Shown: in pieces, positions 8,501-30,802 of the stretch
Layout: every line of letters starts with the position of its first letter
Position numbering within the stretch: the stretch's first letter is position 1
NCBI RefSeq assembly: GCF_000092105.1
Contig: NC_014148.1
Location: 5,190,001-5,222,000, forward strand
DNA from: Planctopirus limnophila DSM 3776
GTDB lineage: Bacteria; Planctomycetota; Planctomycetia; Planctomycetales; Planctomycetaceae
Reading direction: 5' to 3'
Length of the DNA stretch: 32,000 bases
Notes under the pieces: generated by a model
The model's database searches: none
Told to the model about the DNA's origin: nothing
What the model saw: the letters and a program-made list of their open reading frames with translations, nothing else
Position numbers and translations under genes: made by a program

Positions 8501-9022
8501 CACCACATGTTCGCCGGCTTCCGGCATGAGCAGCGCGAGTTTGCCCTGGCCCAAACCTTGAAGGAGAACTCGATTGGTGCTGGATGAGACTTTGCCGACC
8601 GCTGCATCGCCGAATGAAATCGGCAAAACGGCCCAGCCCTGATTCAGAGAGAGCACCTTCAATTGCACATTCAGTCGGACGGCTTCTTTCTCGACTTTGG
8701 CGGTGTATCGAGCTTCGGAGATGACTGCCGGGACAGGTGGCTTTTCGCCTGGCTTCAAACTCTGCTGATGAGCTTTGTTCCAGAGTTCGAGATATTCTGA
8801 AAGTGGTAATGCAATCGTGGCGTCATTTTTCCCGAAGACCTGCTTGAGGTTTTGATAAGGGATGTAGATCCACCGCTGAACCAGTTCCTGATTGGCAGGT
8901 GAGGCGGCTGGTGGCCGCGTGGTGCTCTCCTCCTGGGCGAATACCATTGTGGCTGGTGACAGGGCCAAGGCCAGCAAAGCCATCATCAGACGAATAACAG
9001 TCAATGGCGAGGAGGAGCGCAT
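5501..9022 (-). CDS. Large secreted protein, 1173 aa, with an N-terminal signal peptide and C-terminal transmembrane helices. Family not recognised. It is paralog 1 of the tandem array.
   Basis: A single long ORF. The N-terminus MRSSSPLTVIRLMMALLALALSPATMVFAQEE is signal-peptide-like. There are hydrophobic helices near the C-terminus (FYTWIATIVLIVVALLL, LLLAATIAAASAI, FFGLVAMVLIWLVASIV) and a Pro/Glu-rich tail. Confidence 0.85.
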   Translation of the reverse strand: MRSSSPLTVIRLMMALLALALSPATMVFAQEESTTRPPAASPANQELVQRWIYIPYQNLKQVFGKNDATIALPLSEYLELWNKAHQQSLKPGEKPPVPAVISEARYTAKVEKEAVRLNVQLKVLSLNQGWAVLPISFGDAAVGKVSSSTNRVLLQGLGQGKLALLMPEAGEHVVQFEVVTKVSVSPDGRRFEMQLPNAGISSLELTIPEADQVVELAPAAALELLPTAPGSKETRIRADLGTVEQLKVNWHPRVGSRPDMELLASVTNLTSVQVQDGLIHTHAQLKYDILRGQLASLRIAVPADHRVLDVTSDVRLREWKLSKEGEQQIISVELLGRVDKPATIQVHTERSVPAENFFVAGIVDQQSRGIHALSVLRESGQLALHAGPDVNLTVELQRGLQRTDEAGAAPSIRTPGATYFRYFSPEFELELRARPVEPRLVVNHNSQLIFRDDQLRLNASLDYLVERAGVFELRFGLPEGLTVENVVATGMKQFDVNETTRELVVQFTEKRLGQINLTINGFVPWASASAARNLPLIEPRGAEVENGQVVVFAPEAMEVITETEKVISAQPDPAVAPSQTGNARLVSAWRYQQRPVVIPVSTVRKPSRLTAQVTTRLDVRQGQVSSQTTIGYLVEFAGLSTFRFQVPESVASSVQITSTADAPIKQQSREEKAVDGWVTWTVVLQREVLGRQTFVVTFDVTPQAGTPPEESATLGLVRLIDSPLPESGRNASSESGKNSPAQAEAAKTEEVGNKPASPVVATTVPLTRIVGEVVVTKDRALAVDAVASGGDVESIDTRELTTPVPEGFAAFRYFRQPVEVSLKASKLDVQGVVQTVISRSLVEIVVDKAGVVTGRARYAIKSSERQRLRIDLPGDAQPLGAAMGDRPVALEKTPGASDKGPYTTHFINVARASGADELFHVTILYRLPLSPAPFGSNGGKLLLRMPVWGGLDAQGIVTQQSRVAVWVPQEFSLVSSPTGYTLETRRKFNDLILASPLNSRGLEGLDEWIGQTASGMFDFPREGRGTLYSRLGSGNEITVVWWRLPFYTWIATIVLIVVALLLRRTPLENKLTVLLLAATIAAASAIADADLVLHIVAAMFFGLVAMVLIWLVASIVNCCRPGKPKPVEVPLEQPVVKTKVEEPLAVSTGDASSATSSKPEEPPSQNPTGENQS

Positions 9023-13900: not shown

Positions 13901-14399
13901 GTTTGCTCACTCCTCTTTCAATCTGGCATTCAAGCCCAGGGTCCATATCCGACAGTTCATGGGGAAGTTCCAGTTTCCCGCATGAGCCAGGCTTCTCTCC
14001 TGAGATCCGGTAAAAGAATGGAATCTCTGTCACCCTTTTTCAGGATGAACTTTCACTTCCAATCATGCCAAGATGCTCCCCAAAAACCTTTTGAGAGGCC
14101 ACTCTGCCGGAGGCAATCTCGTGAGATTTTCCCACTTTTCCAGCGAAAACCACTCTTCACCAGTGCTGCGGGGCTCTTGAAGAGATAATTGGTCAGCGGA
14201 CTGCTTCACATCTTTGTTTTGTGACCACAGGATGAACTTCCCGCGCGGACTGGCATCTGGCGCTTGATTTCGCGAAACTGACCACGATAGGTTTTCAGGA
14301 GTTGTCGGGAAGATTTTCATGCCCGGCAGTGGCAGCCTTCGACAGGCCTTTGTCCTGAGAAGGATCTCACAGAATCTGCAGCAGGTTGTGACGGACACG

Positions 14400-14672
14400 A
14401 TGGCTAAAAAGAAATCTGCCAATGATGCCACAGGCCGTAAAGTGCGTGTGAAGGCCGAAGTGACCTCACCCGAGTTTCCCGAGATTCTGCTGGCTGGATG
14501 GACTGGCACCGTCGTCGAAGTGACTGGCAAAGCTCCCGCCGAGAAATATGTCATCGAGTGGGATGCCGAGACATTGTCCAGTATGCCGGCCGATTACATC
14601 ACACGGTGCGAATCGCAACAGTTATACCATCTCATGGCCTGCCTCGACGCCGAAGCGGTCGAAGCGGTGTAG
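14400..14672 (+). CDS. Small hypothetical protein, about 90 aa.
   Basis: Within track ORF 14319-14672, the internal ATG at 14400 (MAKKKSANDATGRKVRVK...) is the more plausible start. A hairpin/T-tract follows directly after the stop. Family not recognised. Confidence 0.5.
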   Translation: MAKKKSANDATGRKVRVKAEVTSPEFPEILLAGWTGTVVEVTGKAPAEKYVIEWDAETLSSMPADYITRCESQQLYHLMACLDAEAVEAV

Positions 14673-14700
14673 GGCAGGCTCCCGCCTGCCTGCCTCTTTT
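14673..14700 (+). terminator. Putative intrinsic terminator: a 7-bp GC stem (ggcaggc/gcctgcc) with a 4-nt loop and a T-rich tail.
   Basis: Stem arms 14673-14679 and 14684-14690, loop tccc, followed by tgcctcttttcttt. It starts 1 nt after the TAG stop at 14670-14672. Confidence 0.5.
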
Positions 14701-14983
14701 CTTTGGGTAACATCAACTGGAAATGCCCAACGACCGGCGAGTACATGGCCCTGGTAGTATTTTCTTCTTCACTGTACCAGCCCCCCGACGACGAATCTCT
14801 CGTATTCGTTTGAATCGATCATGGTTTGGGTGCAGCGAGGAAGGCAGGCAGGAGCCTGCCCTACTTTTCCCGATTGCCTGTGGCGTTTGCTGTAGGGATT
14901 TGTTTCGATAGTTGTGTGCAGAAAGCGTCCTGCGGATGGGACGTTGATCTTCCATTCTGCCGCAGCCCGAACAGACCTCCCTG

Positions 14984-15820: not shown

Positions 15821-15946
15821 GCTTAAAGTGAGGGGAACTTATATCAAATGCTCGCAACAGTTTCCTGATTGTTTGTTTAAAGCTCTCAAAATCTTATTTG
15901 CCGCAGTAGGAAAGAGAACGAATACATGTAGGGAAATACTTTGAAT

Positions 15947-18076
15947 TCACTCGCCTACATTTTCTAGCAACTCTCCATCTTCAGTTTCATCGACTTTGAC
16001 CTGTCCTACCCAGTCCCCAACCACTTCTTTCCAATCCAAATCGCGAGGCTTTTCGTGCGTCCATACATCCCAGAAATCAGGGTCAGATGAATGTGGCCGC
16101 TGATCCGCGCGCAACTCGTCAATTTCTACAAGAATCGGAATTGGTGTTGCCCAGCCAAGCAAAATCGCTTGACGCGAGGGCAGACTTGGAAGCTCGGCCA
16201 ACAATCCTGCGACATTGTCAGGCACAAGCTTGCCAACGAGGTGCTGGTCAGCATCATTTACGATGCGATGCAAAATGAATGTGTTGCACTGCGCCAGGAC
16301 GGTAGCTGACAATTCTGAGGGCCTTTGTGACGACACAACGAGTCCGAGTCCGAACTTGCGTCCTTCGCGGGCAATTTTCTCAAATGTCTCCCGACATAGT
16401 GCAGTAGCTGTTGCCGTGCCGGAGGATTCTTCATGCCCTTTACGCACGAATGTATGCGCCTCTTCAAGTACTAGGACGGTCGGAAGTGACTCACCGGCGG
16501 CATTATCGCGCCGATAACGCTGAAGTGACTCAAACACAAGTCGGCCCAACACGGCGACTACGATATGGACAACTTCACTTGGGATGAGAGAAAGATCAAT
16601 GATCGCCACATTTCCATTCGACGCATTATCTGCCCCCACATACTCTTCAAGCCACGCCTCAAACGTAGGATTTCCATTGACGACAGCCCCGAGATGCTGA
16701 TCCGCCAACATTGCTCGAATACGCAAACCGAGAGTCGCAACGAAGCCCGCCACACCGGCACCTTGCTCAACGGCTATACGTTCAAGATGGTCAGCGAGAA
16801 TATTCACGTCGAAGTAGCTTGGCGAGTCTTCGCTGATAGGCCCTTCCGGAGCAACATCGGGCAATACTTTTGCACAATCCTCTAGCGAAGATCGAATACT
16901 CTCCAAGTCTGATACGAGGAAGTCGTTGTAGTATTGGCCCGATTTCCTAGATTGCTCGATTTGTAATGCAGCCGAAGCAGCGTTCTGCATTAACGTTTGT
17001 GCTTGACCTTCAAGATCACCCGACCATGCTTGACAGTCCTTCGCTATCCCATTCAGCAAACCAGCGCATTCAAAACGAGGTCGAGGAGAACCAGCAAACG
17101 CTATGGTCCCACGGCTCAACATCTCCGAAACTCGCACCATGTAAGAGATCACATAGCGTCGTAATATTGCTTCACGCGATCCCCGCGAAACAGAGCCACT
17201 CTTCAAATCTCTTAACCCTTGCATCAACAAAGGCCGTTGGGCACCGGGTTGAGCGTTGGAAATGGCCGTCCATTCATGTCCGCACCACATCCAGGCTGGC
17301 ACCTGCAAAGCACGATCATCTCCGGAGACTGGCGGAACTTTAAAAAGACGGACATTTTGAGGGTCGTCCCGAAAAGCATTCGAGTATTCAGCGTTAGGAT
17401 CGAGAACGATAAAGCGGGCATTGGGACGTCCCGTCTTGCCGGTTTCGGACATCTGCTTTTTGGCTGCATCCATCGACCAGCGAATCAATCCGGCAACCGT
17501 GCATGACTTCCCGCTACCGGTATTCCCCAGCACCGCGAGGTGCCGCCCGAACAGCTTGTCTGGGTCGACCATGATTTTCGTACTTGCCCCGAGGGGCGAC
17601 ACGCCGATCTTGACGCGCCTATCCGTATCCTTCGCCCCAACGATTGCTTCAATTTGTTCGGCAGTGGGAATCAACACCTGATCCCCGACAGAGGGAAAGG
17701 CGACAACGCCACGGGAGAGCACATACTGGGTGCGCGAGGTCTTGTCGCGTTTGCATGTCAGCGTTGCGACTGGTGAAACTGCCATTTTTCGCAACGGAAA
17801 TGGAAGGTCGATCAAGCCAAAGTCCTTGAGGCCAGATCGTTTCGGGAATGGTGAACGCTCAATTCCTATCCAGGAAATGTAAGCAACCGTCGCCCCCGCT
17901 TCATGGGGAATCAGCACATAACCGTTCAGGCGCGGAAACGCGACAGGCGACCCAGTGTTCAATGCCGTCGTGTGCGGAGTGTCGAGTTCAAGCATCACCC
18001 GCACTTGATCAGGAGCAACTGACTCTACGACACCGACTACGAGGCCAGAGAGATGTTCGACTGGTGAAGTTGCCAC
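15947..18076 (-). CDS. herA: HerA-type (DUF87/FtsK-HerA superfamily) P-loop ATPase. This is the ATPase component of a SIR2-HerA defence module.
   Basis: 709 aa with a GTG start at 18076. Walker A is LGNTGSGKS (codons 17504-17527) and Walker B is VLVLEEAH (16454-16477). There is an N-terminal beta-barrel-like segment (GLVVGVVESVAPDQVRVMLE). The start overlaps the stop of the upstream SIR2-like gene by 1 nt. Confidence 0.9.
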   Translation of the reverse strand: MATSPVEHLSGLVVGVVESVAPDQVRVMLELDTPHTTALNTGSPVAFPRLNGYVLIPHEAGATVAYISWIGIERSPFPKRSGLKDFGLIDLPFPLRKMAVSPVATLTCKRDKTSRTQYVLSRGVVAFPSVGDQVLIPTAEQIEAIVGAKDTDRRVKIGVSPLGASTKIMVDPDKLFGRHLAVLGNTGSGKSCTVAGLIRWSMDAAKKQMSETGKTGRPNARFIVLDPNAEYSNAFRDDPQNVRLFKVPPVSGDDRALQVPAWMWCGHEWTAISNAQPGAQRPLLMQGLRDLKSGSVSRGSREAILRRYVISYMVRVSEMLSRGTIAFAGSPRPRFECAGLLNGIAKDCQAWSGDLEGQAQTLMQNAASAALQIEQSRKSGQYYNDFLVSDLESIRSSLEDCAKVLPDVAPEGPISEDSPSYFDVNILADHLERIAVEQGAGVAGFVATLGLRIRAMLADQHLGAVVNGNPTFEAWLEEYVGADNASNGNVAIIDLSLIPSEVVHIVVAVLGRLVFESLQRYRRDNAAGESLPTVLVLEEAHTFVRKGHEESSGTATATALCRETFEKIAREGRKFGLGLVVSSQRPSELSATVLAQCNTFILHRIVNDADQHLVGKLVPDNVAGLLAELPSLPSRQAILLGWATPIPILVEIDELRADQRPHSSDPDFWDVWTHEKPRDLDWKEVVGDWVGQVKVDETEDGELLENVGE

Positions 18077-19356
18077 TACACCTCCCCTGAAGCTGAGTCA
18101 ACCAGAGTGGCAGCCACAGGTCGGTGCTTTAGAAGCTCTGTCATCCGGCTCGTAATATAATCGAGGGCGGGTTTCGGCAAATAGTTTTCGACCAGCGTCG
18201 AGATGTTCGCGAAATGTTCCCCAATCAACAGCGATACCTGAGCGGTGCGCGTCTGTTCGCAGAAGTACTTAAGCCGCTCGTCTGCGCTATATGCGATCAC
18301 CACAAGGTGCGTAGATGGAATCGAAAGCATGTCCAACAGGATACGGTTGATGTGGTCGTCCCCGAAACCGTACCCATAGGTCACGACCACCGCATTTGGG
18401 CGACAAATTGAGGCCGCGAAGTCACGGAAAAGTTCCGCATATGGATAATTGGTCGTCTCGATATCCTTCGCCGGGTTTGGGTAGATCATGACTGTATCCA
18501 GCGGATTCGCCGGAACGTCCGTGTGAGTGTCTGGCGCGCCGAACGGAATTCCCTTCCTATGAATACGGCGATCACTCTTGTCGAATGTCCAATCCAGTGA
18601 CCCGTGCAGCTTAGTGACACGAATCACACCTTCCATAAACCGTGGTTCGCCGCGAATACCCGGCGGGTTGTAATGAAGATCAACCTCTACACGAGAAGCA
18701 CGGAAGATTGGATTCAGCGTTCCTACAAAGCGGTCAATCAACCGGAGCCCGGCTAAATCGCAGCCATATTCGATCAATCTGTCATAATTTGTTGTAAAGA
18801 TATGCAACCGCTCGCGAGAAGCGGCGCGGCTCGCGAAGCTCAAAAGAAATGACTGCAGTATGTTCTGCGATTCCAGCCTCTTGTCGATGTCCGGCGCTGC
18901 AGAAATTCCCCGTTCTGTTGCAAGCAGCGATTTTAGAAACTTTAGGAGCTCTTTATCCATCGCCGCCCTGAGAGCCCCCCAGTTTGGATCGCTGATCACC
19001 TCCAGACCCTCAAGGAGTGCAACTGCGCTGCGAAACTGATCCTCAATATTTGGGTTTCCGCGATGCATCGCATTAGCAGTCTTCGCTGCATGGGCGTCAA
19101 TCTGGGCATCGTATTTTGTGCCAAACTCCACCATCGACATGCCGGTAGCAGGGCTGTCGGCAATATACGAAACGGCGTTCGTGAAACCGCTGCCAAGCAA
19201 CAGATTCAGATGCTCCGCCTGAAATACTGCCGACAACCAAGGCTCAATGCATCGCCGTGCTGTACTGACAAACGTTTCGTATTCCGCACCAGTCGGGAGG
19301 GCATCCTCCACAAACTCGTGACTGCCAACGCGATAGGAGTGCGCCTTCAAGTCCAT
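18076..19356 (-). CDS. SIR2-like (SIR2_2 family) putative NAD+ hydrolase. This is the effector component of a SIR2-HerA defence module.
   Basis: Motifs, numbered on the 471-aa track ORF: NLLLGSGFT (96-104), IFTTNYDRLIE (Asn235 codon 18787-18789), VTKLHGSLDW (His296 codon 18604-18606) and TYGYGFGDDHINRIL. I place the start at the ATG at 19356 (MDLKAHSY...). The track start at 19491 lies in an AT-rich, promoter-like stretch and encodes an implausible Lys/Tyr-rich leader. Confidence 0.85.
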   Translation of the reverse strand: MDLKAHSYRVGSHEFVEDALPTGAEYETFVSTARRCIEPWLSAVFQAEHLNLLLGSGFTNAVSYIADSPATGMSMVEFGTKYDAQIDAHAAKTANAMHRGNPNIEDQFRSAVALLEGLEVISDPNWGALRAAMDKELLKFLKSLLATERGISAAPDIDKRLESQNILQSFLLSFASRAASRERLHIFTTNYDRLIEYGCDLAGLRLIDRFVGTLNPIFRASRVEVDLHYNPPGIRGEPRFMEGVIRVTKLHGSLDWTFDKSDRRIHRKGIPFGAPDTHTDVPANPLDTVMIYPNPAKDIETTNYPYAELFRDFAASICRPNAVVVTYGYGFGDDHINRILLDMLSIPSTHLVVIAYSADERLKYFCEQTRTAQVSLLIGEHFANISTLVENYLPKPALDYITSRMTELLKHRPVAATLVDSASGEV

Positions 19357-20241
19357 GTCGATGGCCCACCAATATAAAACAAAAGACAAAATAAGAGTCA
19401 GTCGCGATTTTACAAGTAAATCGGCTGGCCGTCCATATTTATAATAACACTTTTTATTATGATTCGAATACTTATACAATTCTAAGGGCACGAAGAAAGA
19501 TAATCGTCGCGTTTTCTTACTCCCTGCGGCTCTTTTTCATTAATTTTCTGCGATCAGAAAATCGTATGAGCTTTGCAATCGAAGTCATTTCCATTTATCG
19601 CGGGAGGCAAATTATGACCATCAGCCGCACGACGGTTGTAGCCATTATAACTCAATCGTTATGTTGGCTACATGCAAGAATTAGCTTTTAATTTCTTCAT
19701 TTGTCTGAAAAGCAGTCAATATCTCTGGTTCGATTGCCTGGAGATCAATCTCAAACAACCCGCTGCGCGTCGCCTGTGTGTTTCGATATCGTTTACAGCG
19801 ACTTCTGAATCATTTCCAGTCGAGGTTGTGAGTCAAGATCTGCCTCAGGCTTTTCATTTTTGGGGGTTATGTGTTGTGTGCACCAACTTTTCCGCAGGGC
19901 GTGCCTCGTGTCGCTGATCTAATACTGCGGCTGCAAGGTCTTTCTTCAAGCCATTCAACCAACAAGGCGAGTAGGCGATTTCTACGAGGAGGACTAAGGC
20001 TTCTATTCCATCAAAGCGACTTCACACTGCCACGTTGTGGTCAATCGCGCTGTCGTCTGCTGCACCGCTTGATCCGCTCTCGCGAATTCTGCAACTGCTC
20101 TGCTCGATTTCAGAGTCGCTTGGCTGGTTGACAGGCGGGTGATCGTGGAGGATAGTCTTTCTGGTGGTTTCTGGAGGATGGGCGGAGTTTAACGTTGCCG
20201 GTTGGGCATACGATCGGGTGATTTTCTACGGGGGATAGGTC

Positions 20242-20529
20242 ATGAAATTCTTCGCGATGTTGGCAGTGACGGCTCTTATGTTTTCGGGGATGGGTGCTGT
20301 GGCGGAAGCTCAGTGGGGTTATCGACCTGTGCGCGTGAATCCAAGGTATCCTGTGCGGGTTTCAACACCGACATATTTTGTGCCGGTTTCGCAAGAGCCA
20401 GTGCGGGTTTCACGCAGCCCGAGAGTGGTTTACGAGCCCATGAATGTGGTCTATTCACGCCGACGGCCCATTCTCGGTGGGTATTCGGTCCGTGTACGAC
20501 CTGCTTACCGCCGCATGGTGATGTGGTAA
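20242..20529 (+). CDS. Small secreted Arg/Pro/Val-rich repeat protein, 95 aa; hypothetical.
   Basis: There is a clear signal peptide (MKFFAMLAVTALMFSGMGAVAEA), then the reiterated units RPVRV / YPVRV / EPVRV / SVRVRP. No family recognised. Confidence 0.55.
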   Translation: MKFFAMLAVTALMFSGMGAVAEAQWGYRPVRVNPRYPVRVSTPTYFVPVSQEPVRVSRSPRVVYEPMNVVYSRRRPILGGYSVRVRPAYRRMVMW

Positions 20530-20662
20530 CGAGGGAGTGTGGGCCGCCCGTTAGTAACGGTTCCTGCTGGTGCGAGAGCTTTCGTTTCCCCCGGAGCAGA
20601 TTCCTGATTAGGATTGGACTGGGTCGATTTGAACCAGCTCTCTCTCCAGTGAACGTTCCCGC

Positions 20663-23437
20663 ATGATGCCTGCCGATGATCACTCTCCCGATGCGTCTGT
20701 CCCTGATGCAGTGATGGGGGAGCATGTAGCCAGCCCTGGCGATGTTTCTCCAGCGGAAACGTTGCCCGCCGATCCTCCGTTCCCGGTGGATCGCGCGGGG
20801 CTGACGCCGATGATGCAGCGGTATCTCGAGGTCAAAGACCAGCATCCTGCGGCTATTCTGTTCTTTCGGATGGGCGACTTTTACGAACTCTTTTACGAGG
20901 ACGCGAAAGTCGCTGCCCGCATTCTGGGGCTGACACTCACCAGCCGCGATAAGAACTCGGAAAACCCAGTCCCGATGGCAGGTTTTCCGTACCATGCTCT
21001 CACGGGTTATCTGCAGAAGATGATCCGTGCGGGACACCGCGTCGCCATCTGTGAGCAGGTCGAAGATCCCAAAGCGGCCAAGGGGATGGTCAAACGGGAA
21101 GTGACACAAATCGTCACTCCCGGCACACTCACCGACGACTCGCTGCTCGACCCGCGTGAAACCAATCTGCTGGCCGCCATCCTTCCCGGAAAAAGCCACA
21201 GTGGCCTGGCCTGGCTCGAACTTTCCACGGGCCGGTTCATCTGTGCCACACTTCCTGCGAGTCAGATACATGATGAACTCGCGCGACTGCAGCCAGCCGA
21301 AGTTCTGACGCCCGAACGATCGCGTGAAGATCTGACGATTGCCCGCATTCGCCTGGGTGCCTGGGCTGTGACCGAACGTCCGCCCTGGGCCTACAGGCCT
21401 GAAGAGGCTCACCGCCTGCTCCTTGATCAATTTGGTGTGGCCACCCTCGAAGGCTTTGGTTTTTCCGGCAACAGTTCATCGACCACACAGGCCACCATCG
21501 AGCCCGGGATCATTGCCGCCGGGGCTTTGCTCGAATACGTGCGGGAAACTCAGAAGTCGCAACTCATTCATCTTTCCCGGCTGGAGCCTTACGAGCCATC
21601 GCAGCATCTGTTGATTGATGAATCGACACGCCGCAGCCTCGAACTGACGCGGACATTGAGATCCAATCAGCGGGAAGGGAGTCTCCTGTGGGCCATCGAT
21701 CAAACGGTCACACCCATGGGTGCCCGGCTGCTCCTCGAATGGCTCTCGAATCCACTCAAAGAGCGCACTGCCATCGAAGCCCGGCTGAACGCTGTGAGTG
21801 AACTGGTGGTTGACCTGCGGACGACACAATCGCTGCAGGAGATCCTCAAAACGGGTTACGACATCCAGCGGCTTACAGCCCGCATCGGGACAGGCCGTGC
21901 CACGCCGCGCGATCTGGTCAGCCTGACGCGCACGCTCAGTCTTTTGCCGCAGATCAAGGCCCGTCTGGCTGGCCGACGATCGACCCTGCTGAATGAACTC
22001 GAAGCGAAGATCGATCTCCATCAGGACTTGCGAGAAGCCATCGAAGCGGCACTGGTCGATGAACCGCCCCTCAATCTGACGGAAGGTGGTGCCATTCGGC
22101 CCGGCTTTGATCCTCAACTTGACGAATGGCGCGATCTGGCGCGTGGTGGTAAAGAATGGATGGCAGCCTATCAAGCCGAAGAGGTCCGCCGGACAGGGAT
22201 CGCGAATCTGAAAGTGGGCTTTAACCGCGTTTTTGGTTTCTATTTAGAATGTAGTGCCAGCCAGGCAGATAAAGTTCCTCCCGAGTATATCCGTAAACAA
22301 ACTCTAAAGAACTACGAACGCTATATCACCCCCGCTTTAAAAGAGTATGAAGATAAAGTTCTGCAGGCCGAAAGCCGGTCGATTGCTCTCGAACAGCAAC
22401 TCTTCAGTGACTTGCGGCAAAAGGTCAGCTCTCGCGCTGCAGAATTGCGAGTAACGGCAGAATCATTGGCTGTGCTCGATGTTCTCTGCAGTTTTGCCAT
22501 ACTCGCCACGCGGCGGCAGTATGTCCGCCCGGAGATCGCGAGTGAACCAGTGCTGGAGATACGACAGGGGCGTCACCCGGTTCTTGATCAACTTTTGCCG
22601 ACAGGTGGATTTGTCCCGAATGATATTCGCCTGGGTGGCTCGAATGGTTTGATCCAACTCATTACCGGCCCCAATATGGCAGGTAAGAGTACATATATCC
22701 GTCAGGCAGCTTTATTAACAATCCTCACACAGATTGGTTCGTTTGTCCCGGCAGAATCCGCCCGGATTGGTCTGGCGGATCGGATTTTTGCCCGTGTCGG
22801 TGCCAGCGATGAACTGGGCCGGGGGCAATCGACATTCATGGTCGAGATGACTGAGACAGCCCGGATTCTGCATTCGGCCACCGCATCGAGCCTCGTGATT
22901 CTCGACGAGATTGGCCGTGGCACCAGTACTTATGACGGGATTTCGCTGGCCTGGGCCATTACCGAGTTCCTGCATGATGCCGTCGGCTGCCGGACGTTCT
23001 TTGCGACGCATTACCACGAATTGACCCAACTGAGTGCTTCACTAAAGTCGGTGATGAACTGGAACGTGGCAGTTCGCGAACATAATGACGATGTGGTTTT
23101 CATGCATCAGATCGTGCCTGGGGCGGCTGATAAAAGTTATGGCATTCATGTAGGTCGGCTCGCCGGCCTGCCGGGTGTGGTGCTCGACCGTGCGCGTGAA
23201 ATTCTGAAAGTGCTGGAAGCCGAGCAGACGGATCATCTCTCGCAGGATCCGGGGAAATCGCGACTGCCAGCGAGAAAAACCCGCCGCTCACGCGAGCAGC
23301 AACTCACACTCTTTGAACTGGCTGAACACCCGATTTTAGAAAAGATCCGCCAGCTCGATGTGCATGGAATGAGTCCCGAAGCCGCCTGGCAGGAACTCGC
23401 CCGCCTGCGCAGTGAGCTTTCAGCGGATAAAGGATGA
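20663..23437 (+). CDS. mutS: DNA mismatch repair protein MutS.
   Basis: [34 protein letters not shown] (mismatch-binding domain), the Walker [21 protein letters not shown], and [12 protein letters not shown]...FATHYHEL. Confidence 0.96.
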
Positions 23438-23697
23438 ATCGAATGCCAGCAGGGCGATTCAGGAGATATTCAGCCCGAGTGTCGGTTCAACGTACCTCAT
23501 GACTCCTCCATGAGTGTTTCCAGAAACTACCATGTCAGACAGGACGGGTGGCTAAATGAGGCGAATCGGGTTGCGTGGGAGCCGAGGAAAGTGGCAGAAT
23601 TGTAATGTTATGTAGTAACCAAGAACGTGGTAGTACGCCTTCCGGTTTAAATACGCCGGATCGTCTGTTCGGATTCACGGAAATTTTAGGAATTAGT

Positions 23698-24147
23698 TTA
23701 CTGCGTTTGGTGAACTGTAAAAACAAGTTCTGCATTTAATTTGGCAATCCCGGCTACGCAATCGACGGCAAGTGCAGGTCCGCTTGCATATGGATAGGCT
23801 TGACCGGACCAGTGAACAGTAAACACTGTATCTCCGCCCGTAGCTGCTTTGATGATCACCTCTCGATGCGGCAAAAGGACGCCCAGCAGGAAACGTAAAT
23901 GTTCATTGACGTCTTTCGTTGCAACACGACTTTTGCTACTAAGTAGCCAACAGCCCCGACGACCAGAACTGCGAGCGACACCCTTAGAATCGAAGCTTGG
24001 TGCCTCTGCTGGAATCGTCCAGTCGCCATTGATTCCAAGTTGGCTGGCAAAATTTTCAAAGACGTTACCATCATTGAAAATTGCGAAATCACAGCCCAAA
24101 CACCTACTGCAATTCTTTGCGATGTCGTCAGTCACGAACTTCTCCAA
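23698..24147 (-). CDS. Small cytoplasmic protein, 149 aa, possibly of the DUF4279 family.
   Basis: The layout resembles DUF4279 as I remember it: F.I.nD.....f...LGI......, then CWLLSS....d...HL..LL..L, then a C-terminal ...IAKLNAELVFTV. This family call is from memory only. The gene sits in the lower-GC islet. Confidence 0.5.
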   Translation of the reverse strand: MEKFVTDDIAKNCSRCLGCDFAIFNDGNVFENFASQLGINGDWTIPAEAPSFDSKGVARSSGRRGCWLLSSKSRVATKDVNEHLRFLLGVLLPHREVIIKAATGGDTVFTVHWSGQAYPYASGPALAVDCVAGIAKLNAELVFTVHQTQ

Positions 24148-24264
24148 CCTAACTCGCCGGTTAACTCAGGCGAGGCCAACCATCATCGATTTGGGAAATG
24201 CTCACCCGGTAGGTGCTTCTTTGGTTCGTGGAGTCATTGGTGGAAAATTGGCCAAGCGTGCCGG

Positions 24265-24612
24265 TCAATGTTGCTCACGTGCATACCCCATCTCATCATG
24301 GACCCATCGGTTGCAGTACGCTTTCACACTGGCGACATCGTCACGATTGAGTTCAAGCCACTCCTTGGCGGCCTGACGCATTTTCAATTCAGCTTCGCGA
24401 CTTTCTCCCGGACGACTTTCAACCCAATCGGTGAGTGAACCCCATATCAACCATAATGGAAGCATAAGATCGGGTGATTCCGTCGCTAGGGACATTGCCT
24501 TGCCCCAGATCCTCGACGCAACATCATAGACTGAAGTTTGTCCATTCAGCATACTTTGCATTTCGAATTCGATCTCGCGCAGGCCGCTTAAGACTTTTGT
24601 GTCATTGTACAT
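24265..24612 (-). CDS. Small hypothetical protein, 115 aa, acidic and Trp-rich.
   Basis: An ORF with coding-like composition in an operon-like array with its neighbours. No family recognised. Confidence 0.55.
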   Translation of the reverse strand: MYNDTKVLSGLREIEFEMQSMLNGQTSVYDVASRIWGKAMSLATESPDLMLPLWLIWGSLTDWVESRPGESREAELKMRQAAKEWLELNRDDVASVKAYCNRWVHDEMGYAREQH

Positions 24613-24658
24613 ATGGTTGAGTCATGAACAGCGGCCATCACTCAGTCGCCGCCAAAAA

Positions 24659-25237
24659 CTATGATTGAAAATCACGGTTGCCCGCCGACTTGGGTGGATT
24701 GCTCAGTTCGTTGCAGTTATGTATGGCTTTGATGAGGCGCAGCTCAACGGTTACTCGGTTCTTGCGGATTTGATCCATCAGGCATGTAGCATCCAAAAGA
24801 GGGCACTGAAAGTCGCCATTGATTCTACCATGCCGAAAACAGTTGCGAGCAAGGGTGTGCCGATTACATCCAACATGGAATGTTCGAACTTGGGGATCGT
24901 AGACAATCATGAGTTCGGGATTTGACGATAACGAGTCAAACCAATCCTCGCCCCATTCTTGTAACCCGAGTCCATCGTCGTGCGGAAGGAACTTGCCGCC
25001 AGAGATTTTCGCGTTGTCATTAGACGGATCAAACGTCTCGAACAGGAAGATTTCTTTGCGAGAGTCACACAGCCGCACGAGTTCAGCCCGGTCATCTTCC
25101 TTAAGACTTACCCACCATTTGTCGGCATCGGCGACAAGAAGTGCCGGTAGAGAATCACGCAATGATCTCGGCATCATGACCATGTCTGTTCCCCGTAGAT
25201 TAAGGCGGCGAAAGATGGAGTTAACAGGCGTTGCCAA
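24659..25237 (-). CDS. Hypothetical protein, up to 192 aa. A Cys/His cluster near the C-terminus may bind metal.
   Basis: An ORF in the same array. The cluster reads HVGCNRH...C..H....C.....C. The start is uncertain: alternative Met codons lie at residues 19, 21 and 22. Confidence 0.55.
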   Translation of the reverse strand: MATPVNSIFRRLNLRGTDMVMMPRSLRDSLPALLVADADKWWVSLKEDDRAELVRLCDSRKEIFLFETFDPSNDNAKISGGKFLPHDDGLGLQEWGEDWFDSLSSNPELMIVYDPQVRTFHVGCNRHTLARNCFRHGRINGDFQCPLLDATCLMDQIRKNRVTVELRLIKAIHNCNELSNPPKSAGNRDFQS

Positions 25238-25303
25238 AGCGGCGCCGTGAAAGAGACAAGAGTTATAGATCGATTGTGTGAGAAGTGGCTCAAAGACGGA
25301 ACG

Positions 25304-25624
25304 TCAAAGTTGAACGTCGTTTTCGGCATCTTCGCCCCAGGGGATGTTCAGTATTTCCGCACGACGCTTAAGGATAGCGTCACCCGCCGCTTGAAGATCG
25401 GGAAAGCAAAGTTCAGACGGTACAACCTCTTCTGACTGTTTCGCTGGGCCGATTTGAAAAAATTCTCCACGTTGATACTCCACGTCATATTCGGCGAGGT
25501 CGTATTCCTCGCATTCCTTAACACAAATGAGAGCAAGCTCGTGATTGTCTGACTGCAGATGGAATGAGAATTCCACACGTTTATTCGCAATCAAATTTTG
25601 GGCAAGTCGATCGATGGAAATCAT
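25304..25624 (-). CDS. Small acidic hypothetical protein, about 106 aa.
   Basis: The track ORF runs 25304-25930, but its first 102 codons are Arg-rich and look non-coding. The internal ATG at 25624 (MISIDRLAQNLIANKRVEF...) gives a compact acidic protein. Confidence 0.45.
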   Translation of the reverse strand: MISIDRLAQNLIANKRVEFSFHLQSDNHELALICVKECEEYDLAEYDVEYQRGEFFQIGPAKQSEEVVPSELCFPDLQAAGDAILKRRAEILNIPWGEDAENDVQL

Positions 25625-26211
25625 CGTGATGCCTAACAGGTATTCGACCACCGAAGTGCAGAAGTGTATTACCGTACTACGGGGTGTGGCACGGACTTGT
25701 AAAAACTGACGCTTTAGGCTGGCAAATGATTTGCGACGGATCGCCGACCTTGTATTCACGTTACACCGCAATTGCCGTCCATACGACGCCGTAATCCCCA
25801 AAAACGAAAATTGACGTCCAAAGAGCCGTCGCTTTGGTCGCAAGCCATTGGCTGCCTCAGCGAACCACGACTTTTGGAATAAACTGCGAATGCCGGAAGA
25901 CTCAAGCACTTGGCGTATCGTACTGAGCAATCCAGCGTGGCAGGCGCTAACCGGGTCATCCTGTTTGATAGCAAGCCATCACGTCCGATGACCTGGGGGC
26001 CAACGAGGATGTTTGACTCCAGATTGTGGTGGGACATCCACACAGGCTTTGTTGTCTGTCATTGATGGAGCAGGGCGTGGGACTGGGGAGATACAGTTTT
26101 ACAGGACATGATTCTTGAGAAACTGCGTGCTGCGTGTTCTGCTGGAGTTTGTGAAAGTGTTTCCACGGGATCTGATACGGATTGCAGTATTCAACTGCGC
26201 TATTTGGTATG

Positions 26212-27357: not shown

Positions 27358-29658
27358 CTAGTCTTCGTTCTTCGCCAGGCTGCCTGAGGGGATCAGGCCC
27401 AGTTGATGCATACGGCGGATGACTTCCCGTGCCATGGGGCCAGCCTCTTTTCCGCCGCTTCCTCCATGTTCCAGCACCACCACAATGGCATAGCGCGGCG
27501 GAGAGGCAGGAGCATAGCCTGCAAACCACGCATGATCGGCGACACCACTTCCTGCCTCGGCAGTCCCGGTCTTGCCGCAGATCTCGACTTCTTTCAGACG
27601 CACGGTCTTATAGGCGGTTCCTTGAGCATCATTCACCACTCGATACAACCCGTGACGAACCTCTTTCAGCGTCTGAGGAGCGAGTGAAGGCTTTCGCACG
27701 TTCGTGCGAGTGGTTTCTCCAGAAGTCTCCGCGAATGATGTCACCAGCAGGGGGCCTTGATCGGTCTTGAGCCGGGGAGTGAGGAGTTCTCCACCATTGG
27801 CAATGGCCGCCATAAAGCGAGCCATTTGCAATGGCGTCACCTGCAGCCGCGATTGACCAATGGCCAGGCCTAATGTATCGCCGGGATACCACGGTTCGCG
27901 GGCCGAATTCGTTTGAGGCGATGGCAGATGACCAGCCTGTTCAAAAGGGAGGTCAATTCCTGTGAGTTGGCCAAAGCCGAATTGCCGGGCTTGTTCGACC
28001 AGTGGGCTGGGCCCCAGCATGCGGGCCAGCTTGAAAAAGTAAACGTTGCATGACTGGCAAAGTGCATCTGAGAGATCTGTCGAACCATGGCCGACGCCAT
28101 AATGCCGGAAGATGAGGCAGCGATCGCGCTGTGGTTGATCCAGATACCCGGCACACTCGATGGCCGACTGCGCCTTCATGCCAGCCTCCAGACCGGCAAT
28201 TGCCGTGAGAGGCTTAAAGGTCGAACCCGGTGCCAGTGCCATGCGTGTGACGCGTTGATAGAGTGGCCGCCGGACATCGCCTGTTAACTGAGCCCACTCC
28301 GTGGCTGAGGGGTTCGTCAGGACATTCGCGTCATAGCCCGGAGCACTCGCTGCGGCAATCACCTGGCCAGTGCGGACATCGATCACGACGACACTTCCGC
28401 CCTGAGGTGATGTCAATCGGGTTGGCTTTTGGGGATTGTCCACATCATTCGTTGATGAGTCGCCTGGCGCATCGATCACATCGGGCAAGAGGGCTTGTTC
28501 CAGCAGAGCTTCGGCAGTGCGCTGGACTTCGACATCAAGTGACAGATACAGGTCGGCTCCGTGCCTCACTTCGCGCGTCATGACTTCTTCAACAATCTGC
28601 CCGCGTCGATCGAGTGTCAGCCGTTTCAAGCCCCTCAAGCCGCGCAACTGAGCGTCATAAGCCAGTTCGAGGCCACTGCGGCCTATGGCATCTCCCGTGC
28701 GATAATCGAGGGGATCACCTTGTGGCCACTGTTTGGTACGTTCCAGTGCTTCTTCTTCGCGCAAAGGAGTCCGCACACCGAGCAAATGGCTGGCCACCTG
28801 CCGGGCTGGATAAGTGCGGTGATGGCGGACGCGAACTTCGAGCCCGGGGTATAACTCCGGGTGTGCCAGAATCTCATCGGCTGCCGCTTTGGGGAGCGTA
28901 TCGAGCACTCGCTGTGGTTCAAGTTCTTCGGCCAATATCAAAGGCCCGTTTTCTGCACGAGGTGGCGGCGTGGTTAACTCATGCTGAAACTCCTGCCATA
29001 ACTTTTGGCCCCAATCGAGCCACGCCGTCACAGCATGTGGTGAAGATTCTTCCGCAATTGATCGTGTTGGCTGTATTGATCGTGTTGGCTGTTCGGTCAC
29101 TGGCTGCTGCTGAATCTGTTTCTCGAGCACAGCCTGCTTCATTCGTTCGATCCGGGTCTGCACACTCTGGCGTGCTTGATCGAGTTCTTCCGGCGTCACA
29201 CCCGTGACATGGGCAATACGTTCCCACAATTGACGGCGTTCGTTGAGGAGCGTGGTGGTCATCGTAGCGACTTGCTTGTCATCACGTCGTTGCCGCCGGG
29301 ATAACCGACTATTCGCCTGCCGCTTGAGCCAGTCCGGATGAGGCGGTTCTTCCAGCCATCGGTAGTGCACCCAGAGTTCGAAGTTCTCTTCATCGACAGC
29401 CAGTAACGAGCCATCTGAGGCGAGAATACGACCATTGCGAGCCGGAATCTCGACGATCCGAGTGGTAGTAGCCTCAAAAACGTGAGTGAACTCTGCCTGA
29501 CGATAGACCTGCAACTGCACGAGGCGATAGCCAATTGCCAGTGAGGGGAGCAGGAAGATCAGTAGCAACACTCTCAGCCGCTGGCCGGGATGATCCAGCC
29601 AGCCATATGTGGGAGCCTCCGGCTCCAGCCACTGAGATTGAAGTGAATTCCGCATCAC
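27358..29658 (-). CDS. mrdA: Penicillin-binding protein 2 (class B peptidoglycan D,D-transpeptidase), elongated at 766 aa.
   Basis: There is an N-terminal TM anchor. The transpeptidase motifs are GSTFKP (SxxK), SCNVYFF (SxN; the SC[DN]xYF form is typical of PBP2) and KTGTAE (KTG). Confidence 0.85.
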   Translation of the reverse strand: MMRNSLQSQWLEPEAPTYGWLDHPGQRLRVLLLIFLLPSLAIGYRLVQLQVYRQAEFTHVFEATTTRIVEIPARNGRILASDGSLLAVDEENFELWVHYRWLEEPPHPDWLKRQANSRLSRRQRRDDKQVATMTTTLLNERRQLWERIAHVTGVTPEELDQARQSVQTRIERMKQAVLEKQIQQQPVTEQPTRSIQPTRSIAEESSPHAVTAWLDWGQKLWQEFQHELTTPPPRAENGPLILAEELEPQRVLDTLPKAAADEILAHPELYPGLEVRVRHHRTYPARQVASHLLGVRTPLREEEALERTKQWPQGDPLDYRTGDAIGRSGLELAYDAQLRGLRGLKRLTLDRRGQIVEEVMTREVRHGADLYLSLDVEVQRTAEALLEQALLPDVIDAPGDSSTNDVDNPQKPTRLTSPQGGSVVVIDVRTGQVIAAASAPGYDANVLTNPSATEWAQLTGDVRRPLYQRVTRMALAPGSTFKPLTAIAGLEAGMKAQSAIECAGYLDQPQRDRCLIFRHYGVGHGSTDLSDALCQSCNVYFFKLARMLGPSPLVEQARQFGFGQLTGIDLPFEQAGHLPSPQTNSAREPWYPGDTLGLAIGQSRLQVTPLQMARFMAAIANGGELLTPRLKTDQGPLLVTSFAETSGETTRTNVRKPSLAPQTLKEVRHGLYRVVNDAQGTAYKTVRLKEVEICGKTGTAEAGSGVADHAWFAGYAPASPPRYAIVVVLEHGGSGGKEAGPMAREVIRRMHQLGLIPSGSLAKNED
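29057..29092. repeat. Perfect 18-bp tandem duplication (attgatcgtgttggctgt, two copies) inside the PBP2 gene. It is in frame and encodes QPTRSI-QPTRSI.
   Basis: Read directly: the copies are 29057-29074 and 29075-29092. The protein reads ...VTEQPTRSIQPTRSIAEE... Confidence 0.9.
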
Positions 29659-29732
29659 AAGTTTTGGCTAATAGTGGAATCGAGGATTCGAAGTGTCTGT
29701 ATTTGGTACAGCGATGGATGCCACCTGTCCCG

Positions 29733-30737: not shown

Positions 30738-30802
30738 GGAGCGAAATCTACTTTCGGCAAGGTGCGTTGGAGGTTGTCAGGAAGATTCCAATGGCCTGGT
30801 TT

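What the first reader, a model, noticed from the sequence alone, without database searches (positions are those of the whole stretch)
15947..19491. Translationally coupled SIR2-like NADase + HerA ATPase pair: a SIR2-HerA type anti-phage module in a planctomycete-like genome
Two minus-strand genes form a compact cassette. The upstream protein carries the three hallmark elements of prokaryotic SIR2_2 NADases. These are the Rossmann glycine loop NLLLGSGFT, TTNYD (Asn codon 18787-18789) and KLHGS (His codon 18604-18606). The downstream 709-aa protein is a HerA/FtsK-class ATPase with Walker A GNTGSGKS (17504-17527) and Walker B VLVLEEAH (16454-16477). The SIR2 stop codon and the HerA GTG start share one nucleotide (TAGTG, 18074-18078), which implies coupled translation and fixed stoichiometry. 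From the literature as I remember it, SIR2 + HerA pairs were identified in systematic defence-island screens. They were later shown to assemble into a large SIR2-HerA complex that depletes NAD+ on infection (abortive infection). This copy sits alone between housekeeping-type genes, has a lower GC content than its flanks, and comes from a lineage where such systems are essentially unstudied. The spacer between Walker A and Walker B is long, about 345 aa.
Basis: partly seen in the sequence, partly recalled or inferred. Interest (0 to 1): 0.85.

Follow-up and report, generated by a model that had tools for sequence, protein, structure and literature searches.

The report
Ordinary SIR2-HerA anti-phage gene pair

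Summary
Both proteins match PADLOC's SIR2 (PDLC04079, E 1.8e-198) and HerA (PDLC04098, E 8.4e-299) models over their full lengths. They also pass the Pfam SIR2_2 and DUF87 thresholds. Their closest solved structures are the E. coli, S. aureus and Paenibacillus SIR2-HerA complexes.

The window is from Planctopirus limnophila DSM 3776 (Plim_4055 and Plim_4054). The pair belongs to a large, horizontally spread subfamily. Relatives are 65-82% identical across unrelated phyla. They sit in defence islands, next to recombinases, on plasmids and transposons, and in prophages.

Four corrections:
- SIR2 most likely starts at ATG 19356 (426 aa, not 471), so the catalytic residues are Asn190 and His251.
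- The "lower GC" is about 2 points and lies within the range of neighbouring genes.
- The overlap gives co-expression, not fixed stoichiometry; the known complexes are 12-14 SIR2 to 6 HerA.
- A 2023 preprint already reports cryo-EM structures of a planctomycete SIR2-HerA.

The long spacer between the Walker motifs is the known helical-bundle insertion. Verdict: a new member of a known kind, of low interest. Function rests on homology only.

The parts
18076..19356 (-). SIR2-family NADase gene (Plim_4055). The most likely CDS is 426 aa from ATG 19356.
   Evidence: Pfam SIR2_2. PADLOC PDLC04079, E 1.8e-198, aligning from residue 48 of the long form. A 426-aa gene is called in L001 and L002. It is 73% identical to the Methylocella plasmid SIR2, which starts at the equivalent position. 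Consensus of 40 homologs.
19180..19206 (-). Rossmann glycine loop NLLLGSGFT (NAD-binding).
   Evidence: Coordinates. G57 is invariant and G55/S56 are nearly invariant among 40 homologs. The loop aligns to LLGAGAS of E. coli SIR2 8J4U.
18781..18795 (-).
   Evidence: Coordinates. N190 is invariant and D192 is at least 90% conserved. The motif aligns to FTTNYD in 8J4U, 8YHX and 8W9L. The equivalent residues N163/D165 are the putative catalytic residues in Paenibacillus SIR2, and N168A abolishes defence in V. cholerae.
18598..18612 (-).
   Evidence: Coordinates. H251, G252 and S253 are invariant. The motif aligns to KLHGS/KIHGS of the solved SIR2 proteins. H227A abolishes defence in V. cholerae.
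15947..18076 (-). HerA-family ATPase gene (Plim_4054), 709 aa, GTG start.
   Evidence: Pfam DUF87. PADLOC PDLC04098, E 8.4e-299, residues 4-690 against model positions 3-684 of 686. An exact match is named 521674.Plim_4054. The homolog consensus MTTPIERLS aligns with the N-terminus.
17504..17527 (-). Walker A motif GNTGSGKS (Lys190).
   Evidence: Coordinates. G184 to S191 are invariant in 40 homologs. The motif aligns to GSTGSGKS of 8WIV.
17384..17410 (-). IVLDPNAEY motif with Asp226. This is the position equivalent to the Asp (D218) whose mutation abolishes HerA nickase activity in the E. coli 'type III' Sir2-HerA.
   Evidence: Motif position. D226 is invariant. D218A data are from PMC13434337. 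The equivalence is inferred from the same motif, IILDPNGEY with D218, in the E. coli plasmid homolog.
16667..17305 (-). Alpha-helical bundle insertion (about residues 258-470) between the two halves of the RecA-like core. It explains the 350-aa gap between Walker A and Walker B. Boundaries are approximate.
   Evidence: The alignment to 8WIV covers query 14-304 and 469-693 and skips this stretch. The Paenibacillus HerA bundle domain is aa 228-396. The stretch is all-helical in the AF2 model, and residues 300-410 are the only confident region, pLDDT 75-94.
16454..16477 (-). Walker B motif VLVLEEAH (Glu538/Glu539).
   Evidence: Coordinates. V536 to H541 are invariant. The motif aligns to VVLEEAH of 8WIV.
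18074..18085 (-). Gene junction. An SD-like GGAGG (18081-18085) lies 4 nt before the HerA GTG. The SIR2 stop TAG (18076-18078) and the GTG (18074-18076) share one base.
   Evidence: Sequence TCAGGGGAGGTGTAGTGGCA. The same 1-nt overlap (TGATG) with a GGAG(G) upstream occurs in the closest relatives L089 and L090. E. coli plasmids have a 4-nt overlap, Methylocella a 7-nt gap and the E. coli P2 prophage copy a 2-nt gap.
19357..20241 (.). AT-rich (46% GC) non-coding tract upstream of SIR2, presumed to be the promoter or regulatory region. It contains a sigma-70-like site at 19435-19407 on the minus strand.
   Evidence: The promoter match is consensus-level only: 5 sites found against 4.2 expected.

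Best explanation
This is an intact two-gene SIR2-HerA abortive-infection anti-phage system in the chromosome of Planctopirus limnophila DSM 3776.

Shown here:
- The gene order is sir2 then herA, in one tightly coupled operon.
- Both proteins are full-length members of one SIR2-HerA subfamily (PADLOC PDLC04079 and PDLC04098).
- All catalytic residues are intact and invariant in the subfamily: SIR2 Gly loop, Asn190, Asp192 and His251; HerA Walker A Lys190, Asp226 and Walker B Glu538/Glu539.
- The subfamily spreads horizontally and keeps company with other defence systems and mobile elements.

Inferred from characterised homologs:
- SIR2 forms a two-layer 12- to 14-mer ring that docks on the N-terminal beta-barrel face of a HerA hexamer.
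- The complex is kept quiet until a phage cue acts through HerA. The cue could be a phage DNA-binding protein such as an SSB, or DNA ends.
- SIR2 then hydrolyses NAD+ to ADP-ribose and nicotinamide. This depletes the cell and stops phage replication at the cost of the infected cell.
- HerA's ATPase, and probably a nickase activity (Asp226 matches the nickase Asp of the E. coli type III system), modulates or gates the NADase.

The operon overlap with an internal Shine-Dalgarno-like sequence ensures co-expression.
For: - Family placement: Pfam SIR2_2 and DUF87 score above their gathering thresholds. PADLOC SIR2 gives E 1.8e-198 and HerA E 8.4e-299, each over essentially the whole model.
- Structural relatives by sequence: SIR2 matches 8J4U/8SU9 (E 1e-21 with a profile), 8YHX and 8W9L. 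HerA matches 8WIV (E 3e-60), 8J4U_M and 8YHO. The motifs align.
- Catalytic residues are invariant in 40-sequence alignments.
- Pairing and the 1-nt overlap are conserved in the closest relatives.
- Defence and mobile contexts of relatives: type I R-M and SbcCD-like neighbours on a Methylocella plasmid. CBASS is next door in L090. A serine recombinase and an excisionase-like HTH lie upstream in L089. There is a Tn3-family transposon on E. coli NDM-1 plasmids and a P2-like prophage hotspot. Eight IMG/VR viral contigs carry relatives at 44-49% identity.
- Cross-phylum identity of 65-70% (Acidobacteria, Syntrophales, Polyangia, Mesorhizobium, Roseateles) indicates horizontal spread.
- Mechanism from the literature: PMC11472057, PMC11514289, PMC11559045 and PMC13434337.
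Against: - There are no functional data for this copy or for any planctomycete host. No phage of P. limnophila was considered here.
- NCBIfam equivalog models built around characterised systems score far below cut-off: SIR2_antiphage 120 against 500, and HerA_antiphage_2 221 against 850. The pair is therefore only 25-35% identical-level related to the biochemically studied systems, and details such as stoichiometry, trigger and the role of the nickase may differ.
- HerA aligns to 8WIV only up to chain residue 606 of 696 and then ends. It therefore lacks most of the C-terminal arm extension that stabilises the Paenibacillus HerA spiral.
- The AF2 models were too poor to confirm folds independently.
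- The locus shows no compositional or repeat signature of recent acquisition, and the 10 other window ORFs scanned with PADLOC gave no defence hit, so the usual 'defence island' support is missing here.
Confidence: 0.88

Rival explanations
1. The pair is a domesticated or decaying relic that no longer works in defence. It may be silent, or retained by chance in a chromosome region that is otherwise housekeeping.
For: It is solitary: none of the 10 other window ORFs scanned gave a PADLOC hit. No mobile-element genes, tRNA or flanking repeats were found. GC and codon usage are indistinguishable from the neighbours, which suggests long residence.
Against: Both ORFs are full length against models of 430 and 686 positions. 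Every catalytic residue that is invariant in the subfamily is intact. The coupled junction with an SD-like sequence is preserved as in the closest relatives. Identity of 80-82% to the nearest homologs, with no frameshifts, argues for purifying selection.
Confidence: 0.05
2. The pair has a housekeeping DNA-repair or DNA-processing role, by analogy with archaeal HerA-NurA. The position next to mutS would then be functionally meaningful, with SIR2 acting as a regulatory deacetylase or ADP-ribosyltransferase.
For: HerA also matches the archaeal repair helicase HerA (4D2I, E 1e-29; NCBIfam HerA_Thermprot, 114 bits). mutS lies 1.3 kb upstream on the opposite strand.
Against: The repair-HerA models score far below their cut-offs. 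There is no NurA or Mre11/Rad50 partner. The partner is an SIR2_2-type protein of the defence subfamily. None of 80 mutS loci from other species has SIR2 or HerA within 10 kb. Relatives sit in defence islands and mobile elements, not beside repair genes.
Confidence: 0.03
3. It is a SIR2-HerA system, but its primary effector activity is DNA nicking or degradation by HerA or the complex, not NAD+ depletion.
For: Asp226 in the invariant LDPNxEY motif corresponds to the Asp whose mutation abolishes nickase activity and defence in the E. coli type III system. Nuclease activities are reported for Nezha (cited in PMC11559045).
Against: In every studied system, SIR2 active-site mutants abolish defence, and the SIR2 active site is invariant here. 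Whether the type III system belongs to this subfamily is unproven: the HerA numbering K188/D218 matches, but Sir2 N238 does not match N221.
Confidence: 0.04

Closest known systems
SIR2-HerA subfamily covered by PADLOC models PDLC04079 (SIR2) and PDLC04098 (HerA). Examples: Methylocella tundrae plasmid p2 WP_134493228.1/WP_322843387.1; E. coli plasmid pair WP_000085084.1/WP_001084041.1; E. coli P2-like prophage pair WP_000027066.1/WP_113415072.1.
   Same: Both proteins match the models end to end. The gene order and tight junction are the same, and so are the motifs (TTNYD, KLHGS, GNTGSGKS, LDPNxEY; the VLVLEEAH Walker B string was confirmed in the Methylocella homolog and in the subfamily alignment, and my motif search did not find that exact string in the three E. 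coli copies). Identity is 73% and 68% to Methylocella, and 48-50% and 44-45% to the E. coli copies.
   Different: The host phylum is Planctomycetota. The position is chromosomal and solitary, beside mutS, rather than on a plasmid, transposon or prophage or in a defence island. The E. coli SIR2 proteins carry insertions of about 30 aa in the small-domain region.
Paenibacillus sp. 453MF SIR2-HerA (PDB 8W9L, 8WIV, 8WLD; PMC11472057)
   Same: This is the closest solved HerA (E 8e-51, or 3e-60 with a profile). The layout of beta-barrel, split RecA core and helical-bundle insertion is the same, and so are the SIR2 catalytic N/D/H residues.
   Different: The relationship is distant. The helical bundle here is about 213 aa against 169 aa. 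The HerA here ends about 90 residues short of the Paenibacillus C-terminal arm extension. The SIR2 match is weak (E 5e-10 with the single sequence, 1.5e-9 with the profile). The Paenibacillus complex is 14 SIR2 to 6 HerA; the stoichiometry here is unknown.
E. coli Nezha / SIR2-HerA (PDB 8J4U, 8SU9; Gao 2020, Tang 2023 and Shen 2023 as cited in PMC11559045)
   Same: This is the closest solved SIR2 (E 8e-20, or 1e-21 with a profile, covering the Gly loop through the C-terminal Rossmann strands). It is a two-gene operon with a 12:6 complex that depletes NAD+.
   Different: The HerA match is weaker (E 6e-31) and limited to the RecA core. The NCBIfam equivalog cut-offs are not reached. It is a different subfamily.
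E. coli Sir2-HerA type III (PMC13434337)
   Same: The tested mutants HerA K188A (ATPase) and D218A (nickase) have exactly the residue numbers of the Walker A Lys and the LDPNGEY Asp in the E. coli plasmid member of this subfamily. Both residues are conserved here as K190 and D226.
   Different: Sir2 N238 in the paper does not match N221 in the E. coli plasmid protein, and no alternative start reconciles the two. Membership of type III in this subfamily is therefore a lead, not a result.
HerA-DUF4297 systems (PDB 8XAU, 9C1M; PMC11291478 and bioRxiv 10.1101/2024.10.24.620088)
   Same: The HerA cores are of similar closeness (E 6e-47 and 2e-45).
   Different: Their partner is a DUF4297/Cap4-like nuclease, not SIR2. 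Here the partner is clearly SIR2.

Membership tests
SIR2-HerA anti-phage system (PADLOC / Gao 2020 definition) | A SIR2_2-type protein with an NAD-binding Gly loop and the catalytic Asn, Asp and His. | tested here: met
   Pfam PF13289 scores 33 bits, above 24.5. PADLOC PDLC04079 gives E 1.8e-198. The motifs align to 8J4U, 8YHX and 8W9L. N190 and H251 are invariant and D192 is at least 90% conserved.
SIR2-HerA anti-phage system (PADLOC / Gao 2020 definition) | A HerA/FtsK-class ATPase with Walker A and Walker B, an N-terminal barrel and a helical-bundle insertion. | tested here: met
   Pfam PF01935 scores 65.5 bits. PADLOC PDLC04098 gives E 8.4e-299 over 684 of 686 positions. Alignment to 8WIV covers the N-terminal part and the RecA core. 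The fold itself was not confirmed independently because the AF2 model was poor.
SIR2-HerA anti-phage system (PADLOC / Gao 2020 definition) | The two genes are adjacent, on the same strand and co-transcribed, with sir2 upstream. | tested here: met
   1-nt overlap TAGTG with an SD-like GGAGG. The same arrangement occurs in relatives.
SIR2-HerA anti-phage system (PADLOC / Gao 2020 definition) | Association of the family with defence islands or mobile elements. | tested here: met
   Met for the subfamily: R-M, CBASS, recombinase, Tn3-family transposon, P2 prophage and IMG/VR contigs. Not met for this particular locus, which is solitary among the ORFs scanned.
SIR2-HerA anti-phage system (PADLOC / Gao 2020 definition) | Formation of a SIR2 12-14-mer with a HerA hexamer, and infection-triggered NAD+ depletion that gives phage protection. 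| not testable with these tools
   Needs biochemistry and phage assays. Structure prediction of the monomers failed (pLDDT 54.6 and 51.2), and no multimer prediction is available.
NCBIfam equivalogs SIR2_antiphage (NF042942) and HerA_antiphage / HerA_antiphage_2 (NF042943 / NF042944) | A whole-protein score above the curated equivalog cut-off. | tested here: not met
   Scores are 120 against 500, 178 against 800 and 221 against 850. The pair lies outside these narrowly defined subfamilies but remains inside the broader SIR2-HerA family.
Archaeal/bacterial repair helicase HerA (HerA-NurA) | An equivalog-level match, and a NurA/Mre11/Rad50 neighbourhood. | tested here: not met
   NF040937 scores 114 against 800 and NF040819 scores 107 against 970. 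There are no such neighbours.
E. coli Sir2-HerA type III (PMC13434337) | Sequence identity with the tested type III proteins. | tested here: inconclusive
   The HerA numbering K188/D218 matches the E. coli plasmid relative, but Sir2 N238 against N221 does not.

The most novel reading that the evidence does not exclude
The copy may belong to a very widespread but biochemically uncharacterised SIR2-HerA subfamily, 65-82% identical across phyla. That subfamily may work by the recently described 'type III' logic: a phage SSB-type trigger, a HerA Asp226-dependent nickase that produces DNA ends, and an ATP checkpoint on the NADase. A long-resident, compositionally ameliorated chromosomal copy in P. 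limnophila would then be a tractable native model of abortive infection in Planctomycetota, a phylum with almost no experimental phage-defence biology.
Probability: 0.15. Interest if true: 0.4.

Novelty: new member of a known kind. Interest (0 to 1): 0.2.

Why it matters
It matters little beyond correct annotation. The locus adds a planctomycete example to a defence family that is already well characterised structurally and functionally, and it shows that the public start codon of Plim_4055 is probably 45 codons too long. The subfamily is extremely common and highly conserved across phyla, yet it is distinct from the three structurally solved systems. A representative of it would therefore be a reasonable target for biochemistry. 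The E. coli plasmid or prophage members would be far easier to study than this copy.

Tried and rejected
1. Insertion test. MutS was used to fetch 80 loci from the species-level genome collection. The best was only 66% identical, and no Planctopirus relative was returned. None had SIR2, HerA or the hydrolase within 10 kb. This shows that the mutS linkage is not conserved, but it cannot date the acquisition.

2. Signs of an island. There were no tRNA genes and no Rfam hits. No convincing direct repeats bracket the cassette: the only flanking pair, 15853-15870 and 20592-20609, matches at 15 of 18 bases and is likely chance. There is no GC3 or codon-usage deviation. The upstream 1.3 kb has no tblastx or blastn similarity to the contexts of homologs.

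3. Structure. AF2 on 40-sequence alignments gave mean pLDDT 54.6 (SIR2) and 51.2 (HerA). The alignments were too shallow, since all members are at least 64% identical to the query.

4. Linking the subfamily to the tested E. coli type III. The HerA residue numbers agree and the Sir2 number does not. Three E. coli variants were checked, and alternative starts were excluded by upstream stop codons or the absence of a start codon at -17. The supplementary files are not held. This remains unresolved.

5. V. cholerae Nezha (N168/H227) was considered as a closer tested relative and rejected. It is described as Nezha-type.

6. Cultured phage genomes carry no close homolog.

7. No paper mentions Plim_4054, Plim_4055 or the E. 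coli accessions.

Full report
**1. Observation**

ORF listing shows two minus-strand ORFs, 18076-19491 (471 aa, GTG) and 15947-18076 (709 aa, GTG).
- NLLLGSGFT at 19180-19206.
- TTNYD at 18781-18795 (Asn codon AAT, 18787-18789).
- KLHGS at 18598-18612 (His codon CAC, 18604-18606).
- GNTGSGKS at 17504-17527.
- VLVLEEAH at 16454-16477.
- The junction TAGTG at 18074-18078, where the SIR2 stop and the HerA start share one base.

An SD-like GGAGG sits 4 nt upstream of the HerA GTG. The Walker A to Walker B distance is 350 aa.

**2. Corrections to the observation**

*SIR2 start.* The PADLOC SIR2 model aligns only from residue 48 of the 471-aa ORF. Gene callers on four independent assemblies that carry the identical locus call a 426-aa product. 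The 73%-identical Methylocella protein and the consensus of 40 homologs begin M-x-(W)KKH-x-YRVG, matching MDLKAHSYRVG at ATG 19356. The 45 extra codons lie in AT-rich sequence with a sigma-70-like site at 19435-19407. The catalytic residues are therefore Asn190, Asp192 and His251. The public annotation (Plim_4055, 471 aa) is probably too long.

Gene by gene, with SIR2 from ATG 19356, the two genes (both 53.0-53.1%; GC3 0.515 and 0.590) fall inside the range of their neighbours (49.0-57.7%; GC3 0.50-0.72), and their codon-usage distances are ordinary. The visible dip is in the 885-bp non-coding tract 19357-20241 (46% GC).

**3. What it is**

- Pfam places the proteins in SIR2_2 (33 bits, cut-off 24.5) and DUF87/HerA central domain (65.5 bits, cut-off 23.2).
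- PADLOC's defence-system models match end to end. SIR2 PDLC04079 gives E 1.8e-198 (model positions 4-418 of 430). HerA PDLC04098 gives E 8.4e-299 (3-684 of 686). The next-best models are 140-210 orders of magnitude worse.
- NCBIfam's narrowly defined equivalogs for anti-phage SIR2 and HerA are hit but far below cut-off (120 against 500; 221 against 850). The pair therefore lies in the SIR2-HerA family but outside the curated subfamilies built around the first characterised systems.
- Against the PDB, SIR2's only relatives are the SIR2 subunits of SIR2-HerA complexes. These are E. coli Nezha 8J4U/8SU9 (E 8e-20, or 1e-21 with a profile that covers the Gly loop), S. aureus 8YHX and Paenibacillus 8W9L.
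- HerA's best hits are Paenibacillus 8WIV (8e-51, or 3e-60 with a profile), two HerA-DUF4297 systems (8XAU, 9C1M), 8ZIQ, Nezha HerA, S. aureus 8YHO and archaeal HerA 4D2I.
- The catalytic motifs align residue for residue.

**4. The "long spacer"**

The 8WIV alignment covers HerA residues 14-304 and 469-693 and skips the middle. In Paenibacillus HerA the RecA-like domain is split (aa 133-227 and 397-575) by an alpha-helical bundle domain (aa 228-396). The equivalent stretch here, about residues 258-470, is all-helical, and part of it (300-410) is the only confident region of the otherwise poor AF2 model. The spacer is therefore a known family feature, roughly 45 aa longer here.

One real difference concerns the C-terminus. 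The alignment ends at chain residue 603-606 of 696 while the protein here ends at 709. Most of the C-terminal arm extension that stabilises the Paenibacillus HerA spiral is therefore absent.

**5. Source and relatives**

- The HerA sequence is identical to 521674.Plim_4054, and SIR2 to Plim_4055.
- More than 6,000 homologs of each protein were scored at E below 1e-10. The top 120 of each are 64-82% identical and include Terriglobia, Syntrophales, Polyangia, Mesorhizobium, Roseateles and Reyranella. Identity this high across phyla indicates horizontal spread.
- In 40-sequence alignments the following are invariant: SIR2 G57, N190 and H251-G252-S253; HerA G184 to S191 (Walker A), D226, V536 to H541 (Walker B) and many others.

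**6. Context of relatives**

- On Methylocella tundrae plasmid p2 (73% and 68% identical), the pair lies between a type I R-M system with an AAA-ATPase pair and SbcCD-like genes.
- In L090 (HerA 80% identical) it neighbours DUF4238, a peptidase-S8/AAA pair and a CBASS operon (SMODS, E2, patatin).
- In L089 (82% and 73% identical; a 7.8-Mb chromosome) it follows a large serine recombinase, DUF2924 and an HTH_17 protein.
- In E. coli, members of the same PADLOC subfamily (48-50% and 44-45% identical) ride a Tn3-family transposon beside NDM-1 and sul1 on plasmids. They also occupy the ogr-proximal hotspot of a P2-like prophage.
- Eight IMG/VR contigs carry relatives at 44-49% identity. Cultured phage genomes carry none.
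- The 1-nt overlap is conserved in L089 and L090 (TGATG, with GGAG(G) upstream). The junction varies elsewhere, from a 4-nt overlap to 2-nt and 7-nt gaps.

**7. This locus**

- The neighbours are housekeeping or typical planctomycete genes: mutS (20663-23437), a 3-keto-disaccharide hydrolase-family gene, a GT2 glycosyltransferase, DUF1559 proteins, a PBP2-type transpeptidase and FliP/FliR-type genes.
- The 10 other window ORFs scanned with PADLOC gave no hit.
- There are no tRNA or Rfam hits and no credible flanking repeats.
- mutS loci of 80 other species (MutS identity 66% or less) show no SIR2 or HerA within 10 kb. The mutS adjacency is therefore lineage-specific and probably fortuitous.
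- No close Planctopirus genome was available, so the insertion could not be demonstrated or dated.
- The lack of compositional deviation suggests that the acquisition is not recent.

**8. Mechanism**

*Shown here:* family membership, intact catalytic residues and operon structure.

*Inferred from the literature:*
- SIR2 forms a double-ring dodecamer, or a tetradecamer, that binds a HerA hexamer. SIR2 alone is auto-inhibited, and complex formation plus a phage cue activates NAD+ hydrolysis (PMC11472057; PMC11514289).
- SIR2 active-site mutants and herA deletion abolish defence in a native host (PMC11559045).
- In the E. coli type III system, phage Gp2.5 (an SSB) and Gp5.9 trigger the complex. 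A HerA nickase (D218) creates DNA ends that drive the ATPase (K188) and relieve an ATP checkpoint on the NADase (PMC13434337).
- The E. coli plasmid member of this subfamily has its Walker A Lys and its LDPNGEY Asp at exactly K188 and D218. The corresponding residues here (K190, D226) are invariant. However, the paper's Sir2 N238 does not match N221, and no alternative start explains the offset. Transferring the type III model is therefore a lead only.

This does not hold, because the known complexes are 12:6 or 14:6. Coupling ensures co-expression.

**9. Comparison and novelty**

SIR2-HerA is a textbook defence system. It has multiple cryo-EM structures, native-host genetics, a published sub-classification and known phage counter-defences. 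A 2023 preprint reports SIR2 and HerA structures from 'Planctomycetes HKU-PLA5'. No paper mentions Plim_4054 or Plim_4055.

This copy is a new member of a known kind, in a subfamily that is abundant but not shown here to include any biochemically characterised member.

**10. Verdict**

The finding is ordinary, with an interest score of about 0.2.

Noticed in passing
window 14669-14696 and 14837-14864: A 28-nt inverted repeat, 93% complementary, with arms 140 nt apart. It starts at the stop codon of the 117-aa ORF (14319-14672) and lies upstream of the 3-keto-disaccharide hydrolase gene. These are the only two copies in the window, and none are expected by chance. It could be a large hairpin, a terminator or a small repeat element.
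   Followed up: partly
window 19357-20241: An 885-bp AT-rich (46% GC) tract with no convincing ORF lies between SIR2 and a 95-aa signal-peptide ORF. It has no similarity to the flanks of homologous cassettes. Its origin (promoter region or insertion scar) is unexplained.
   Followed up: partly
window 18076-19491: The public annotation of Plim_4055 (471 aa, GTG 19491) is probably 45 codons too long. ATG 19356 (426 aa) fits the homologs, the profile models and independent gene calls.
   Followed up: yes
window 2-4903 (-) and 5501-9022 (-): Two very large minus-strand ORFs have no Pfam hit. One is at least 1634 aa and runs off the window start. The other is 1173 aa and also has no PADLOC hit. They may be giant planctomycete surface or unknown proteins.
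   Followed up: partly
window 23500-26100: A stretch of about 50% GC on the far side of mutS holds several small ORFs with no family hits apart from a weak DUF4279 match (23698-24147, minus strand; E 2.6e-4, below the Pfam cut-off). It may be an accessory or foreign segment. The three largest ORFs there gave no PADLOC hits.
   Followed up: partly
window 20242-20529 (+): A 95-aa ORF with an N-terminal signal-peptide-like segment and a proline/arginine/valine-rich repetitive body lies just upstream of mutS. One assembly calls it as a gene (L002). It has no PADLOC hit.
   Followed up: no
L085 5365-8825 (E. coli plasmid pEsST80_L1_NDM) and L087 4839-8287 (E. coli CT30 chromosome): E. coli members of the same SIR2-HerA subfamily travel inside a Tn3-family transposon, flanked by ISCR1, sul1 and NDM-1 resistance genes. 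They also sit in a P2-like prophage hotspot between ogr and the tail genes. 81 of 5426 complete E. coli genomes carry a match.
   Followed up: partly
L085 6753-8825 compared with PMC13434337: The residue numbers of the tested E. coli 'type III' HerA mutants (K188A, D218A) coincide exactly with the Walker A Lys and the LDPNGEY Asp of the plasmid HerA WP_001084041.1. The Sir2 mutant N238A does not match N221 of WP_000085084.1.
   Followed up: partly
window 27358-31993: A PBP2-type transpeptidase gene (27358-29658) lies next to flagellar or type III export genes of the FliR (29733-30737) and FliP (31142-31993) families. This is ordinary housekeeping context.
   Followed up: no
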